Source of the DNA: an uncultured Erythrobacter sp.
GTDB taxonomy: Bacteria > Pseudomonadota > Alphaproteobacteria > Sphingomonadales > Sphingomonadaceae
Direction: 5' to 3'
NCBI RefSeq assembly: GCF_947499705.1
Contig: NZ_CANMPJ010000002.1
Location: forward strand, 676,688 to 740,687
DNA: 64,000 nt
A program made the translations under genes and the position numbers. This document shows, one piece after another, positions 23,880-27,327 of this stretch (position 1 is the stretch's first letter; each line of letters starts with the position of its first letter). The notes beneath the pieces were generated by a model. That model was not told the DNA's origin. It made no database searches and saw only the letters and a list, made by a program, of their open reading frames with translations.

Positions 23880-24788
23880 GTGCTGTCACTACTTGCTGCA
23901 AGCGGCGCTGCCGATCCGATTTACTGGTCGGATCTGGGGCTGAAGCCGGGGATCGATATCTTCGGGTTTTTCACGCTGCGCTTCTACTCGTTGGCCTATC
24001 TGATCGGGGTGATTTTTGCCTATTGGCACACGCTGAAAGCGCTTAAGACGCCCGGTGCGCCGATGGCGCAGCGCCATGCCGACGATCTGTTCTTCTATTG
24101 CACGCTCGGCGTGATCCTGGGTGGACGGCTGGGTTACGCCGCGTTCTATACCGGCGGTGACACCGGCATTCCGAGCGCCTTCACCGACTTTTCGGGCGAA
24201 GGCTTTGTCAGTTGGAAGCTATTACGCATGTGGGATGGCGGGATGAGCTTTCATGGCGGGCTTGTCGGGGTGGTCGTGGCGATCATCTTTGTGACCTGGC
24301 GCGACAAGCTGAATTTCCTGCGCGTGTGCGACTACATCGCCGTCAGTGTGCCGATGGGCATGCTGCTCGGGCGGCTGGCGAACTTCAACAACGGTGAATT
24401 GTGGGGCCGCGTGACCGATGTGTCGTGGGGCATGGTGTTTCCGGGTGCTGACGAAGTGCCGCGCCACCCCAGCCAGCTCTATCAGGCTGGGCTCGAAGGT
24501 TTGGCGCTGCTCGTGATCTTGCTCGTGCTGTTTTGGAAGACCAAGGCGCGTTATCGCCCGGGTCTGCTTGTCGGTGTTTTCACGCTCGGTATGGGAGTGG
24601 CGCGCTTTGTTAACGAATTTTTCCGTCAACCGGATGCACAATTGGCTGACTTTGCAGTTCAAACCGGGCTATCGATGGGGCAATGGCTGTCAGTACCGCT
24701 GATCTTGATTGGATTGATTGTCACGCTTTACGCGGTGACCCGCAAGCCGGTTGGCACGGGCGCGGGGAGCACTCCGCAGACGGCCTGA
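23880..24788 (+). CDS. lgt: Prolipoprotein diacylglyceryl transferase
   Basis: GGRLGY, WDGGMSFHGG, GRLANF.NGELWGR, RHPSQLY, EFFRQPD. Confidence 0.96.
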   Translation: MLSLLAASGAADPIYWSDLGLKPGIDIFGFFTLRFYSLAYLIGVIFAYWHTLKALKTPGAPMAQRHADDLFFYCTLGVILGGRLGYAAFYTGGDTGIPSAFTDFSGEGFVSWKLLRMWDGGMSFHGGLVGVVVAIIFVTWRDKLNFLRVCDYIAVSVPMGMLLGRLANFNNGELWGRVTDVSWGMVFPGADEVPRHPSQLYQAGLEGLALLVILLVLFWKTKARYRPGLLVGVFTLGMGVARFVNEFFRQPDAQLADFAVQTGLSMGQWLSVPLILIGLIVTLYAVTRKPVGTGAGSTPQTA

Positions 24789-26839
24789 ACGCCGGCCTGA
24801 TCCTCGACGACGATCCGCGCCTGTGGCGTCCCAAACTTACGCTGATTGAACCGGACGGCACCGAGGCTTTGGTGCTGAGTCTGGCTGAAGCTGGGGCGAA
24901 ACCCGCTGCCGACGCCAAAGTCGAAGCTGAGAAAGTGGCAAAGGCTGCTGCGGAAAAAGCGAGAGCCGAAGCAGAGGCTGCGGCTCAGGCAAAGGCAGAA
25001 GAAGAGGCCAAAGCCAAGGCAGCGGCCGAGAAGGCGAAGAAAGAAGCAGAGGCTAAGGCCAAAGCGGACGCCGAAGCGAAAGCGAAAAAAGAGGCCGAGG
25101 AGAAGGCGAAGGCTGAAGCGGAAGCTAAGGCCAAGGCGGCAGCTGAAGCGGCGGCAGCGGCCAAGGCCAAGAAAGAAGCGGAAGCTGCGGCGAAAAAGAA
25201 AGCTGCCGCTGAGGCCAAAGCCAAGAAGGAGGCCGAAGCAAAGGCTGCGGCTGAAGCGAAGGCCAAGAAGGAAGCCGAAGAGAAAGCCAAAGCCGAAGCG
25301 CGCGCCAAGGCCGTCGCCGAAGCAGAGGTTCGCGCCAAGGCAGAAGAGGCCGCGGCTGAGGCAGCAGCAAAGGCAGAAGCCAAGCGAAAGGCCGAGGCCA
25401 AGGCGAAGGCCGCCGCAGAGGCCAAAGCCAGGAAAGACGCGGAAGAAAAGGCGAAGCGCGAGGCCGAGGAAAAAGCCAAAGCCGAGGCTGAAGCCAAGGC
25501 CAAGCAAGAGGCCGAGAAGAAGGCGAAAGCCGAGGCGGCAGCAAAAGCGAAAGCTGAAAAGGAAGCAGCGGCCAAGGCCAAGAAAGAAGCGGAAGCCGCA
25601 GCGAAAAAGAAGGCTGCGGCCGAGGCCAAGGCCAAGAAAGAAGCGGAAGCTGCGGCGAAAAAGAAAGCTGCTGCCGAGGCCAAAGCCAAGAAGGAAGCCG
25701 AAGCAAAGGCTGCGGCTGAAGCAAAGGCCAAGAAGGAAGCCGAAGAGAAAGCTGCCGCTGAAGCCAAGGCCAAGGAAGAAGCGGAGCGCGCCAAGGCCGA
25801 AAATCTCGGCGAAACTTTCCGCCGCCTGATCCGCGAAACCGGCCCTATCAGCCTCGCGCAATATATGGGTGAGAGTAACGCGCGCTATTATGCGAGCCGT
25901 GATCCGCTCGGCGAAGAAGGCGATTTCATCACAGCGCCCGAAGTCAGCCAGATGTTCGGCGAGCTGGTCGGTCTATGGCTGGCCGATCTGTGGGTGAAGA
26001 TGGGCCAGTCGGACAACATCCACTATGTCGAGCTCGGCCCGGGTCGCGGGACGCTGACCAAGGATGTGTTGCGCGCTGCCAGTAAATACGGTTTCGACCC
26101 GCATCTGCACTTTGTCGAAGGCTCGATCGAGCTGCGCAAGATTCAGCGTCAGGCCTTCCCGGCGGTCCGGTTCCATAACGATCTGTCGACGCTACCCGAA
26201 GACCGCCCGCTGCTGATTGTCGCAAACGAATTCTTCGACGCGCTGCCTGTTCACCAGCTGGTTCGCTCCGCTCAAGGCTGGCATGAGCGGATGGTCGGGC
26301 TGGACGATGACCGTTTCGTGTTCGTCGCTGGCGACAAGCCGATGGACTCGGTCGTGCCGACCAGCTGGAAGAACGCTTCGCAAGGCTCGATGATCGAAAC
26401 CAGTCCGGCGGCGGCAACGGTGATGGCCGAGATTGCACAGCGTCTGACCAACCAGGGCGGCGCCGCGCTGATCATGGATTACGGCCCGACCGAACTGCGT
26501 GCGGGTTCAACGCTCCAGGCGCTCAAGAAGCACAAGAAGGTCGATCCGCTCACGCATCCCGGCGAGGCCGACCTGACCGCGCATGTCGATTTCGAGATGC
26601 TGCAGGAAGTCGCGGCCAAAAATGGTGCCGATGTGATGGGCCTGCAAATGCAGGGCGAATGGCTCCGCCAGATGGGGATCGATGTCCGGCACGAAGCGCT
26701 CAAGCGCAAATCGCCCGGAGAGGCCGACAAGCTGGATCGGCAATACGACCGGCTGGTCGCCGACGATCAAATGGGTGCATTGTTCAAGGTGCTTGGCATT
26801 TGCGGGCGGCGCTGGCCGTTTGGAGTCGGCTTCGACTGA
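24785..26839 (+). CDS. MidA/NDUFAF7-family SAM-dependent methyltransferase with ~300-aa N-terminal Ala/Glu/Lys repeat extension
   Basis: GDFITAPEVSQMFGE, VELGPGRGTL, ANEFFDALP, DLTAHVDF from about 25802; open frame continues upstream through the repeats; start codon uncertain (CTG 24785, TTG 24869 or GTG 24872). Confidence 0.88.
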   Translation: MNAGLILDDDPRLWRPKLTLIEPDGTEALVLSLAEAGAKPAADAKVEAEKVAKAAAEKARAEAEAAAQAKAEEEAKAKAAAEKAKKEAEAKAKADAEAKAKKEAEEKAKAEAEAKAKAAAEAAAAAKAKKEAEAAAKKKAAAEAKAKKEAEAKAAAEAKAKKEAEEKAKAEARAKAVAEAEVRAKAEEAAAEAAAKAEAKRKAEAKAKAAAEAKARKDAEEKAKREAEEKAKAEAEAKAKQEAEKKAKAEAAAKAKAEKEAAAKAKKEAEAAAKKKAAAEAKAKKEAEAAAKKKAAAEAKAKKEAEAKAAAEAKAKKEAEEKAAAEAKAKEEAERAKAENLGETFRRLIRETGPISLAQYMGESNARYYASRDPLGEEGDFITAPEVSQMFGELVGLWLADLWVKMGQSDNIHYVELGPGRGTLTKDVLRAASKYGFDPHLHFVEGSIELRKIQRQAFPAVRFHNDLSTLPEDRPLLIVANEFFDALPVHQLVRSAQGWHERMVGLDDDRFVFVAGDKPMDSVVPTSWKNASQGSMIETSPAAATVMAEIAQRLTNQGGAALIMDYGPTELRAGSTLQALKKHKKVDPLTHPGEADLTAHVDFEMLQEVAAKNGADVMGLQMQGEWLRQMGIDVRHEALKRKSPGEADKLDRQYDRLVADDQMGALFKVLGICGRRWPFGVGFD
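24890..25800 (+). repeat. Intragenic degenerate tandem repeats encoding AKAKKEAE.../KKKAAAE units
   Basis: AKAKKEAEAAAKKKAAAE occurs three times; a ~130-bp block near 25160-25290 recurs almost identically near 25627-25755. Confidence 0.9.
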
Positions 26840-26901
26840 GCCGGATGTAACCTTTCGTCGCATTCATGCGTACTGATCATGACTCGCCCTCGGAGAGAGC
26901 C

Positions 26902-27327
26902 ATGATTCTGCGCCATTTGTTACCCTTTGTCGCCGCGTGCTTTGCGCTTTTTGCCGCCCCTGCGAATGCGGCAGACTCAATCAACGGACGCTGGGTGACG
27001 GAGGACAAAGATGGGATCGTCCTGATTGGTAAGTGCGGCGCGAGCACTTGCGGCAAAATCGTACGTTTCCTGATCACACCGCCCGATGGCCCGGATCAGC
27101 GCGACATCTACAACCCCAACCCGAAGCTGAAGAAGCGCAAGTTGCTGGGGCTGCCGGTGCTCACCAATTTCAAGGAAGAGTCGGATTTGTGGCGCGGGAC
27201 TATCTACGATCCCAACACCGGCAAGAGCTACCGTTCCGTCATCCGGCGCAAGAGCGCAAATACGATTGAAGTCAAAGGCTGCATCGGCCCGTTCTGCCAG
27301 ACGCAGATTTGGCGCAAGGCGCGTTAG
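26902..27327 (+). CDS. DUF2147 domain secreted protein
   Basis: Signal peptide, G.W.TED, D.YNPNP..R.LLGL, W.GTIYDPNTGKSY, C.GPFC.TQ.W. Confidence 0.88.
   Translation: MILRHLLPFVAACFALFAAPANAADSINGRWVTEDKDGIVLIGKCGASTCGKIVRFLITPPDGPDQRDIYNPNPKLKKRKLLGLPVLTNFKEESDLWRGTIYDPNTGKSYRSVIRRKSANTIEVKGCIGPFCQTQIWRKAR

What the first reader, a model, noticed from the sequence alone, without database searches (positions are those of the whole stretch)
24785..26839. MidA/NDUFAF7 methyltransferase fused to a ~300-aa, recently amplified Ala/Glu/Lys coiled-coil
Seen in sequence: the frame runs without a stop from the lgt stop codon through a short globular-looking peptide (LILDDDPRLWRPKLTLIEPDG) and about 300 codons of A/E/K repeats into a complete MidA-type domain starting near 25802. 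A ~130-bp block is duplicated nearly identically, which indicates recent expansion. The first in-frame ATG downstream of lgt lies inside the catalytic domain, so translation of the whole needs a CTG, TTG or GTG start. Established: lgt-midA adjacency is common in alphaproteobacteria, and NDUFAF7 is a single-domain Arg methyltransferase for the complex I subunit NDUFS2/NuoD. Inference: the TolA-like charged helix could be a spacer, tether or oligomerising rod, or a length-variable module, giving an architecture I do not recognise as described.
Basis: partly seen in the sequence, partly recalled or inferred. Interest (0 to 1): 0.7.

Follow-up and report, generated by a model that had tools for sequence, protein, structure and literature searches.

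The report
Long-armed MidA methyltransferase starting inside lgt
In the Erythrobacter/Porphyrobacter group, an otherwise ordinary complex-I-type arginine methyltransferase (MidA/NDUFAF7) carries two small conserved N-terminal peptides and a roughly 46-nm charged helical spacer, and its start codon lies about 100 bases inside the upstream gene lgt.

Summary
One frame is open from 24650 to 26839. It contains a ~306-residue Ala/Lys/Glu tract, a complete MidA (PF02636) domain, and a 129-bp block duplicated at 125/129 identity.

Parts of the interpretation need correcting:
- **Start codon.** The ORF most likely starts at ATG 24683, inside lgt, with a 106-nt out-of-frame overlap. It does not need a CTG/TTG/GTG start downstream. 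In 53 of 53 related loci, lgt keeps the non-preferred CAA codon that creates this ATG. Synonymous variation in lgt falls by about half over the overlap. 44 of 52 loci have no other canonical start upstream of a second conserved peptide, L(R/K)LI(E/D)PDG.
- **Rod type.** The rod has almost no hydrophobic residues and a large excess of i/i+4 salt-bridge pairs. It looks like a single alpha-helix, not a coiled coil.
- **Distribution.** The arm occurs across one genus-level clade and in no other of 111 sampled genera of the family. Sister lineages carry (Pro-Glu)n or Pro/Lys-rich spacers instead.

My best reading is an enzyme on a tether: N-terminal docking peptides, a length-selected spacer and MidA. 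The docking partner is unknown. No paper describes this architecture, although database annotations contain it. I class it as a new variant of a known kind, of moderate interest.

The parts
23880..24788 (+). lgt (prolipoprotein diacylglyceryl transferase), 302 aa. Its last ~35 codons, covering the final TM helix and tail, are also read in another frame by midA.
   Evidence: PF01790 at E=1.1e-66; ORF listing.
24683..26839 (+). Full long-form midA ORF: 718 aa plus stop. Proposed true start is ATG 24683.
   Evidence: ORF. ATG conserved in 53/53 long-form loci through the lgt CAA codon, against 10/30 CAA in other genera. No other canonical start before motif 2 in 44/52 loci.
24683..24788 (+). 106-nt out-of-frame overlap between lgt and midA. 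A midA codon is made of position 3 of one lgt codon plus positions 1-2 of the next.
   Evidence: Coordinates. The overlap is 97-136 nt in 54 loci. Synonymous-difference fraction in lgt drops from about 0.5 to 0.26-0.28 here. Outgroups without motif 1 show no drop.
24683..24733 (+). Motif 1, MA-x2-TA-x2-DW(I/V)DC-x2-LR (here MAVSTADLDWIDCHALR), overprinted on the last TM helix of Lgt.
   Evidence: Alignments: M1, A2, C13, L16 invariant; A6, W10, D12, R17 at >=90%. Forced rare lgt codons: TTG 52/53, ATT 53/53, GGA/GGG 52/53, wobble T 49/53. AF2 gives a short helix at 13-17/18.
24824..24874 (+). Motif 2, WR-x2-L(R/K)LI(E/D)P(D/E)G(T/S)E (here WRPKLTLIEPDGTEALV), a predicted beta-hairpin just after the lgt stop.
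   Evidence: Conserved at the amino-acid level with free synonymous variation. L52, I55, P57 at >=90% and L54 invariant. AF2 hairpin at 52-55/61-64 with pLDDT about 80.
24872..24874 (+). GTG used by the public gene call (655-aa product P0001). It has a GAGG 5 nt upstream and may be a secondary start.
24881..25798 (+). Ala/Lys/Glu spacer, aa 67-372. Predicted single alpha-helix, about 46 nm if fully helical.
   Evidence: Composition and i/i+4 charge pairing. AF2 helices 75-308 and 313-372. It is the only tract of this kind over 300 aa in the genome.
25159..25287 (+). Copy A of the recent 129-bp duplication.
   Evidence: 125/129 identity to copy B, all 4 differences synonymous.
25624..25752 (+). 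Copy B of the recent 129-bp duplication.
25570..25704 (+). 54-bp tandem array, 2.5 copies at 91% match, inside the spacer.
   Evidence: Tandem Repeats Finder.
25799..26836 (+). MidA/NDUFAF7-type class I SAM methyltransferase domain. Pfam core is nt 25964-26641; the glycine-rich motif VELGPGRGTL is at 26027-26056.
   Evidence: PF02636. PDB 1ZKD at 4.6e-69 and 5ZTZ at 2.3e-51. AF2 pLDDT about 85-97. Single copy in the genome.

Best explanation
**What it is.** This is the only midA gene of an Erythrobacter-clade genome. It encodes a 718-aa protein with three parts.

1. **N-terminal leader, about 65 aa.** Translation starts at ATG 24683 inside lgt, in a different frame. Motif 1 (MAxxTAxxDW[IV]DCxxLR) is therefore written over the codons for the last transmembrane helix of Lgt. 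Motif 2 (L[RK]LI[ED]PDG[TS]E), a small beta-hairpin, lies just past the lgt stop.
2. **Spacer, about 306 aa.** This Ala/Lys/Glu tract most likely forms a monomeric, salt-bridge-stabilised single alpha-helix roughly 46 nm long. It is not a coiled coil.
3. **Canonical MidA/NDUFAF7 SAM-dependent methyltransferase domain.**

**How I think it works (inferred).** The two leader peptides act as short docking motifs for a partner that is not yet known. The rod acts as a leash or ruler that sets the reach of the catalytic domain. The presumed substrate is the conserved Arg in the HGVLR segment of NuoD in complex I.

**Why the spacer matters for its length, not its sequence.** Sister lineages keep both motifs and the enzyme but replace the A/E/K helix with (Pro-Glu)n or Pro/Lys-rich tracts. 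The repeat DNA turns over quickly by duplication and deletion.

**Shown versus inferred.** The anatomy, the dual-coding constraint on lgt, the clade restriction and the helix-type composition are shown. The start-codon usage is strongly inferred. Docking, the tether role and the substrate are inferred.
For: **Start inside lgt**
- All ~54 long-form loci keep one open frame from the MidA domain back into lgt, with an ATG at the same lgt site.
- The lgt Gln codon that creates it is CAA in 53/53 long-form loci. In 30 other genera of the family it is CAA 10 and CAG 20.
- Other forced non-preferred lgt codons encode W10, I/V11 and C13 of motif 1.
- The lgt synonymous-difference fraction falls from about 0.5 to 0.26-0.28 at codons 273-288. 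It also falls in six motif-1-bearing short forms (0.36 to 0.15). It does not fall in 12 outgroups that lack motif 1 (0.49 to 0.53).
- Motif 2 is conserved as protein while its codons vary freely.
- The Met1-to-motif-2 distance takes 14 different values and is always in frame.
- 44/52 loci have no in-frame ATG/GTG/TTG between Met1 and motif 2.
- In more than half of the loci the codon lying over the lgt stop is GTA, TTA or CTA, which cannot initiate.

**Spacer**
- 5 of 306 residues are hydrophobic, with one Pro and one Gly. There are 105 i/i+4 opposite-charge pairs against 37.7 +/- 4.8 in shuffles.
- AF2 predicts continuous helices at 75-308 and 313-372.
- PE- and PK-type linkers occur in relatives. 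AEKR is monophyletic, PE is its sister, and PK is nearby.
- AEKR-type extensions run 188-469 aa with a median near 349.

**Enzyme and substrate**
- PF02636 and PDB 1ZKD/5ZTZ; single copy.
- NuoD is present with NFGPQHPAAHGVLRM.
- NDUFAF7 methylates that Arg in the human enzyme (PMC3829151).

**Assembly**
- An independent contig has the same repeat length.

**Functional analogy**
- The single alpha-helix of INCENP acts as a 'dog leash' for Aurora B (PMC4571873).
Against: - There are no expression data.
- ATG 24683 has only a weak, closely spaced SD-like GGGG (-4.7 kcal/mol, within the lgt background). GTG 24872 has a better GAGG at 5-nt spacing, so a 655-aa isoform without the motifs may exist or even predominate.
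- The leader is not a confidently folded domain (pTM 0.26, mean pLDDT 61), and no partner is known.
- Motif 1 is partly predetermined by the conserved Lgt sequence, so some of its conservation comes for free.
- The bacterial MidA substrate has never been shown experimentally. PMC12455994 states that the prokaryotic function is only inferred in silico and reports DNA methylation by a Wolbachia MidA.
- A neutral low-complexity expansion cannot be ruled out.
Confidence: 0.6

Rival explanations
1. Neutral low-complexity expansion. The ancestral ATGA start at the lgt stop was lost and translation shifted to a fortuitous upstream ATG. A slippage-prone tract then grew between leader and enzyme and is merely tolerated. 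On this view the arm and leader do nothing beyond not harming MidA.
For: - Repeat DNA turns over quickly: copies are 97% identical within the genome but at most 76% identical between species.
- Linker chemistry is not conserved.
- The leader is not a folded domain.
- Six or seven relatives do without a linker.
Against: - Motif 2 is under clear protein-level purifying selection.
- Motif 1 imposes costly rare codons on lgt.
- All ~55 species of the clade keep an extension of at least about 125 aa, and AEKR-type lengths cluster at 188-469 aa.
- All four differences between the duplicated blocks are synonymous.
- All three linker chemistries are extended or rod-like.
Confidence: 0.22
2. The public gene call is right. 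Translation starts at GTG 24872 and gives a 655-aa rod-plus-MidA protein. The upstream motifs are not translated, and their conservation reflects lgt coding or an RNA or translation-control element.
For: - GAGG lies 5 nt upstream of GTG 24872, whereas ATG 24683 has a poor SD.
- Gene callers chose downstream starts in this and several other genomes.
Against: - GTG 24872 lies downstream of motif 2, which is conserved as protein with synonymous variation.
- 44/52 loci have no canonical start between the lgt ATG and motif 2.
- The frame is kept across 14 spacing variants with no stop in 54 loci.
- The synonymous constraint in lgt appears only in lineages that have motif 1.
- A minor short isoform in this strain remains possible.
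Confidence: 0.1
3. One reading: the A/E/K tract is a coiled coil that oligomerises MidA into a dimeric or trimeric rod.
For: - Ala-rich helices can pack together ('alacoils').
- AF2 predicts one long helix.
- There are weak low-complexity matches to TolA domain II.
Against: - Only 5 of 306 residues are L/I/V/M/F/W/Y.
- Ala has period 2, not 3.5.
- i/i+4 ion pairs are strongly enriched, about 14 SD above shuffles.
- Sister lineages use (PE)n or PK-rich linkers, which cannot form coiled coils.
Confidence: 0.06
4. Assembly or annotation artefact: a collapsed or expanded repeat, or a frameshift that falsely joins two genes.
For: Short-read assemblers often mis-size repeats. I had no read-level check.
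Against: - An independent metagenome contig is collinear, with 3 SNPs in 7829 bp and the same length.
- About 55 species show the same architecture in one frame.
- The genome is in 2 contigs and 99.99% complete.
Confidence: 0.02

Closest known systems
MidA / NDUFAF7 (Pfam PF02636 Methyltransf_28; PDB 1ZKD from Rhodopseudomonas palustris, 5ZTZ from Dictyostelium)
   Same: The C-terminal 346 aa form a full-length, high-confidence MidA domain with the glycine-rich SAM motif. The gene is single-copy and sits directly after lgt, as in the rest of the family. NuoD carries the conserved target Arg.
   Different: Canonical bacterial MidAs are about 330-390 aa and start at or next to the lgt stop, often at an ATGA overlap. 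This one has a 372-aa N-terminal extension (two motifs plus a rod), and its start has moved about 100 nt into lgt.
ER/K-type single alpha-helix (SAH) linkers, for example in myosin VI/X, and the INCENP 'dog leash' for Aurora B (PMC4571873, PMC4183817, PMC5347031)
   Same: It is highly charged, has almost no hydrophobic residues, and shows a strong i/i+4 Glu-Lys/Arg pattern. It joins a localising N-terminal element to an enzyme, which matches the logic of the INCENP leash.
   Different: It has much more Ala (47%) than classical E/K/R SAHs and is very long (about 300 aa). It is bacterial. Monomeric helicity has not been measured.
TolA domain II and the TonB Pro-rich (Glu-Pro/Lys-Pro) spacer
   Same: The A/E/K composition resembles TolA domain II, with weak matches. 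The (PE)n and PK-rich linkers in sister lineages resemble the TonB spacer. The layout is the same: small N-terminal element, long extended spacer, C-terminal globular domain.
   Different: There is no N-terminal transmembrane anchor and no signal peptide. The match to TIGR02794 scores 21.6 bits against a 59.45-bit cut-off. The protein is presumably cytoplasmic. It is not homologous to the Tol or Ton machinery.
Overprinted (out-of-frame overlapping) gene pairs
   Same: Two frames are under selection across about 50 nt. lgt wobble positions are frozen to encode W, C and I/V in the second frame.
   Different: Only the first ~17 codons of the second gene are visibly constrained. Most long bacterial overlaps are annotation errors, whereas this one has comparative support. 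It probably arose when a start codon moved upstream from an ATGA junction.

Membership tests
MidA/NDUFAF7 (PF02636) | Match to the family profile above the curated cut-off | tested here: met
   197.4 bits against a 23.3-bit cut-off; aa 428-653 cover profile positions 1-247 of 249.
MidA/NDUFAF7 (PF02636) | Full-length homology to solved MidA structures, including the N-terminal helix and the auxiliary domain | tested here: met
   1ZKD at 4.6e-69 over aa 377-707; 5ZTZ at 2.3e-51. AF2 pLDDT is about 85-97 over the domain.
MidA/NDUFAF7 (PF02636) | Class I SAM-binding glycine-rich motif | tested here: met
   VELGPGRGTL at aa 449-458. E450, L451, G452, P453 and G454 are invariant in 52 sequences.
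MidA/NDUFAF7 (PF02636) | Arginine methylation of NDUFS2/NuoD | not testable with these tools
   NuoD with HGVLR is present. The activity has been shown only for the human and Dictyostelium enzymes (PMC3829151) and is only inferred in bacteria (PMC12455994).
MidA/NDUFAF7 (PF02636) | Compact single-domain architecture of about 330-390 aa | tested here: not met
   718 aa. 147 of the 150 best 50%-cluster representatives have no N-terminal extension.
Single alpha-helix (ER/K-type SAH) domain | Charged composition with enriched i/i+4 opposite-charge pairs and no hydrophobic seam | tested here: met
   105 pairs against 37.7 +/- 4.8 in shuffles; 5 of 306 residues hydrophobic.
Single alpha-helix (ER/K-type SAH) domain | Stable monomeric helix in solution | not testable with these tools
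   AF2 predicts continuous helix at pLDDT 50-82. This needs CD and AUC.
Canonical coiled coil | Heptad repeat with hydrophobic a/d positions | tested here: not met
   Ala periodicity is 2.0 and there is no 3.5 signal; hydrophobic residues make up 1.6%.
TolA (TIGR02794) | Profile match above the cut-off, N-terminal TM anchor and C-terminal TolA domain III | tested here: not met
   21.6 bits against a 59.45-bit cut-off, confined to the low-complexity part. Reading the N-terminal 66 aa directly shows no hydrophobic segment.
Overlapping (dual-coding) gene pair | Reduced synonymous variation in the older gene, confined to the overlap and to lineages that use the second frame | tested here: met
Overlapping (dual-coding) gene pair | Direct evidence that the second frame is translated from the overlap | not testable with these tools
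   No reads or proteomics were available.

The most novel reading that the evidence does not exclude
The leader and rod form a true molecular tether. Motif 1 arose de novo by overprinting the last transmembrane-helix codons of Lgt. Together with the motif 2 hairpin, it docks MidA at a defined cellular site. The rod has been reinvented in three chemistries (A/E/K helix, (PE)n, PK-rich) and is selected purely for physical reach of tens of nanometres. This would be a bacterial counterpart of the INCENP-Aurora B leash. It would also be a rare comparatively supported case of a functional peptide born inside another gene.
Probability: 0.35. Interest if true: 0.7.

Novelty: new variant of a known kind. 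Interest (0 to 1): 0.5.

Why it matters
Three reasons.

1. **Bacterial MidA biology.** The role of MidA in bacteria is only inferred. A version with docking peptides and a 20-70 nm leash implies that the enzyme acts at a particular site. The peptides could serve as bait to find that site or the substrate.
2. **Protein evolution.** The clade is a natural experiment. The same two end modules are joined by three unrelated extended linkers. This allows a direct test of whether selection acts on spacer length or on spacer sequence.
3. **Gene annotation.** Long out-of-frame overlaps in bacteria are usually dismissed as annotation errors. Here the comparative evidence supports a ~100-nt overlap whose new reading frame constrains the codon choice of an essential membrane enzyme. 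Gene callers place this start inconsistently, so public proteomes carry truncated versions, including this genome's own 655-aa call.

Tried and rejected
- **Sequencing runs.** I therefore had no read-level check of repeat length, no transcript ends and no Ribo-seq.
- **Homologue search with the leader alone.** Residues 1-73 gave no hit at E<=0.01 against 5.8 billion proteins. The motifs are too short, so I cannot say whether the leader occurs on other enzymes. A tblastn of the leader against the own genome found only itself.
- **Family searches on the leader.** NCBIfam gave nothing for the leader alone. The full-protein scans against Pfam and PDB sequences matched nothing within it.
- **CTG at the lgt stop ('CTGA') as a coupled start.** Rejected as a general mechanism. 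That codon is GTA, TTA or CTA in 29 of 54 loci.
- **Long open frames in other genera.** The genome search listed open frames of 500-1400 aa in other genera. All 39 that I examined are alt-frame read-through of the adjacent lgt, with the lgt end within -75 to +39 nt of the MidA domain in 37 of them and lgt not adjacent in the other two. They are not extensions.
- **Other long proteins among the representatives.** P0234 (N-terminal DUF559-like part), P0224 (C-terminal fusion) and P0240 (a fragment) are unrelated to this arm.
- **DUF2147 as a partner.** The downstream gene is next to 44 of 55 long forms but also next to 6 of 13 outgroup short forms, and it has a signal peptide. I found no specific link.
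- **Minus-strand ORFs through the repeat.** ORFs such as 24728..25861 are low-complexity mirror frames. I did not pursue them.
- **AF2 of the leader.** It gave no compact fold, so I ran no fold search.


Full report
**Observation.** The ORF listing gives a 718-aa ORF at 24683..26839 (+). Its frame is open from 24650. lgt is 23880..24788 (PF01790). The only Pfam domain in the long ORF is PF02636 (Methyltransf_28, MidA) at aa 428-653, E=3.6e-58. Homology to the solved MidA structures 1ZKD and 5ZTZ starts at aa 377-383. Residues 67-372 are 47% Ala, 26% Lys and 21% Glu. The tract contains many degenerate repeats of 24-72 bp. It also contains one 129-bp block (25159-25287) that recurs at 25624-25752 with 125/129 identity. 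That includes the point that the first in-frame ATG after the lgt stop (25865, aa 395) lies inside the catalytic domain.

**Is the repeat real and recent?** All four differences between the two 129-bp copies are synonymous, and the encoded 42 residues are identical. This argues that the frame is translated. No segment in any other species, including the closest relatives at about 90% catalytic-domain identity, matches the block above 76%. The duplication is therefore recent and specific to this lineage. An independently assembled ENA metagenome contig (L081, 37.6 kb) is collinear with the window over 7829 bp, with 3 SNPs and no gaps. One of those SNPs lies inside the repeat.

**Where the protein starts.** Many database orthologues begin MA(D/N)xTAxxDW(I/V)DC..., which matches the window's ATG at 24683 inside lgt. 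I fetched 80 genome loci with the catalytic domain. In about 54 'long-form' loci the frame is open from the MidA domain back into lgt, and an ATG sits at the same lgt position. A midA codon here consists of the wobble base of one lgt codon plus the first two bases of the next. The evidence that this frame is translated is as follows.
- The lgt Gln codon that creates the ATG is CAA in 53/53 long-form loci. In 30 other genera of the same family with the same GQW sequence it is CAG 20 and CAA 10.
- lgt is held to non-preferred codons that spell W10, I/V11 and C13 of the second frame. These are Leu TTG 52/53 (background 16%), Ile ATT 53/53 (27%) and Gly GGA/GGG 52/53 (GGC is preferred at 56%).
- At one codon the wobble T is kept in 49/53 loci even though the Lgt residue itself varies among I, T, V and A.
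- A sliding window of synonymous differences across lgt stays at about 0.4-0.6 along the gene and drops to 0.26-0.28 at codons 273-288. The least probable codon columns cluster there.
- As a control, 12 outgroup taxa whose Lgt ends in the same sequence but whose second frame lacks motif 1 show no drop (0.49 to 0.53). Six Altererythrobacter-type taxa that keep motif 1 show the drop (0.36 to 0.15).

Just downstream of the lgt stop lies a second motif, L(R/K)LI(E/D)P(D/E)G(T/S)E. It is conserved as protein while its codons vary freely. Its distance from Met1 takes 14 different values (39-56 aa) and is always in frame. None of the 54 loci has a stop in between. 44 of 52 loci have no in-frame ATG, GTG or TTG between Met1 and motif 2. 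The codon lying over the lgt stop is CTG in 25 loci and GTA, TTA or CTA in 29, so a 'CTGA' coupled start does not generalise. I conclude, at about 85%, that the family initiates at the ATG inside lgt. In this window that gives a 106-nt overlap; the range is 97-136 nt elsewhere. One caveat is specific to this genome. ATG 24683 has only a weak SD-like GGGG, whereas GTG 24872, the public 655-aa call, has GAGG at 5-nt spacing. A shorter isoform is therefore possible.

**The rod.** Five of 306 residues are L/I/V/M/F/W/Y, with one Pro and one Gly. Ala has period 2. Opposite charges at i/i+4 number 105 against 37.7 +/- 4.8 in shuffles, while i/i+1, i+3, i+5 and i+7 pairs are depleted. This is the signature of a salt-bridged single alpha-helix (PMC5347031, PMC4183817), not of a heptad coiled coil. 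AF2, run with 52 homologues, predicts helices at 75-308 and 313-372 at pLDDT 50-82 and a confident MidA domain. If fully helical, the tract spans about 46 nm. The genome contains no other tract of this kind longer than about 100 aa.

**The leader.** AF2 on the leader alone (54 sequences) gives a short helix at 13-17 and a beta-hairpin at 52-55/61-64 with pLDDT about 80. The pTM is 0.26, so there is no compact fold. I read the leader as two short linear motifs. It matches no family.

**Distribution and history.**
- Among the 150 best representatives of 50%-identity clusters, only the Erythrobacter cluster carries this arm. Nearly all the others are 330-390 aa.
- In an even sample of 151 genomes from 112 genera of the GTDB family, MidA is nearly universal (146/151). 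Only the window's genus (G000, G053) has a real extension. The other long open frames are read-through of the adjacent lgt.
- A catalytic-domain tree shows outgroups without motif 1. Inside them sits a 62-row clade with motif 1. Within that clade are paraphyletic short forms (motif 1 and about 20 aa joined directly to MidA), a Pro/Lys-rich linker group, and a strongly supported pair: a (Pro-Glu)n group (3 rows) and a monophyletic A/E/K/R group (49 rows).
- All linker-bearing groups share motif 2.
- In short forms MidA has an ATG at an ATGA junction with the lgt stop. In long forms that ATG has been lost.
- A/E/K/R-type extensions range from 188 to 469 aa, with a median near 349.

**Mechanism.** The enzyme module is an ordinary MidA. 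It is single-copy, and NuoD with the conserved HGVLR Arg is present. NDUFAF7 methylates that Arg in human complex I (PMC3829151). The bacterial function is still only inferred (PMC12455994). The conserved features of the arm are two terminal peptides and an extended spacer. The spacer's chemistry is not conserved: its net charge is +18 here and strongly negative in the PE forms. A nucleic-acid-binding or other charge-based role is therefore unlikely. A spacer selected for physical length fits better. My best explanation is a tethered enzyme. The leader docks to an unknown partner and the rod sets the reach, much as the INCENP single alpha-helix leashes Aurora B (PMC4571873). I rate the anatomy at about 0.85-0.9 and the tether function at about 0.5. 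The main rival is a tolerated neutral expansion (about 0.2).

**Relation to earlier notes of this scan.** After I had reached this reading, a word search returned two follow-up reports on other genomes. Both describe the same architecture, including the start inside lgt. They agree with my results but are not independent evidence.

**Verdict.** The start codon, the helix type and the claim of uniqueness need correcting. This is a clade-wide variant of MidA that is undescribed in the literature but partly annotated in databases. It combines MidA with a leader overprinted on lgt and a fast-evolving spacer. I class it as a new variant of a known kind, with interest about 0.5.

Noticed in passing
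window 23880-23905 (lgt codons 3-8): In the ~33 loci aligned there, the 5' end of lgt also shows fixed rare codons (TCA 33/33, CTA 33/36, CTT 31/33) and low synonymous variation (0.26). This may reflect a translation-initiation constraint, a mis-set lgt start or another overlapping feature.
   Followed up: no
window 24647-24682 (lgt codons 263-267, just upstream of ATG 24683): Rare lgt codons are also kept upstream of the midA ATG (Leu CTA 39/53 against 4% background; Gly GGG/GGA). This suggests a nucleotide-level constraint on the initiation region, although the region has no good Shine-Dalgarno sequence.
   Followed up: partly
L052, L057, L059, L060, L062, L063, L071 (Altererythrobacter-type loci): These relatives have no linker and keep an ATGA start at the lgt stop. 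They still conserve motif 1 in frame inside lgt, with the same frozen wobble bases. They may therefore make a MidA with a 36-aa leader and no rod, which would be the likely precursor state or a secondary loss.
   Followed up: partly
L046, L048, L050; L054, L058, L061: Sister lineages replace the A/E/K helix with about 40-55 perfect Pro-Glu dipeptide repeats, or with a Pro/Lys/Glu/Ala-rich tract of 170-340 aa. Both resemble the TonB spacer.
   Followed up: partly
L042 (labelled Nitriliruptoraceae MAG), L073 (labelled Marinomonas MAG): Contigs binned into an actinobacterial MAG and a gammaproteobacterial MAG carry Erythrobacteraceae-type lgt-midA loci. This is probably mis-binning or contamination in those MAGs.
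   Followed up: no
P0224 (646 aa) and P0234 (556 aa): Other MidA architectures exist elsewhere. One has a C-terminal fusion to a further domain of about 280 aa. The other has an N-terminal part that looks like a DUF559/Vsr-type endonuclease. Neither is related to the arm studied here.
   Followed up: no
window 26866-27327: The downstream gene encodes a DUF2147 protein with a signal peptide. It follows midA in 44/55 long-form loci and also in 6/13 outgroup short forms, so I see no specific link to the arm.
   Followed up: yes
genome C1, minus strand, ORF offset ~1126826: This is the only other A/E/K-rich tract in the genome. It is about 100 aa long, at the C-terminal end of a 188-codon open frame (…EKAEKAAAAKEAEEEAKKAAEEEAKAAAEAPAEEAPAE). 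I did not identify the protein.
   Followed up: no
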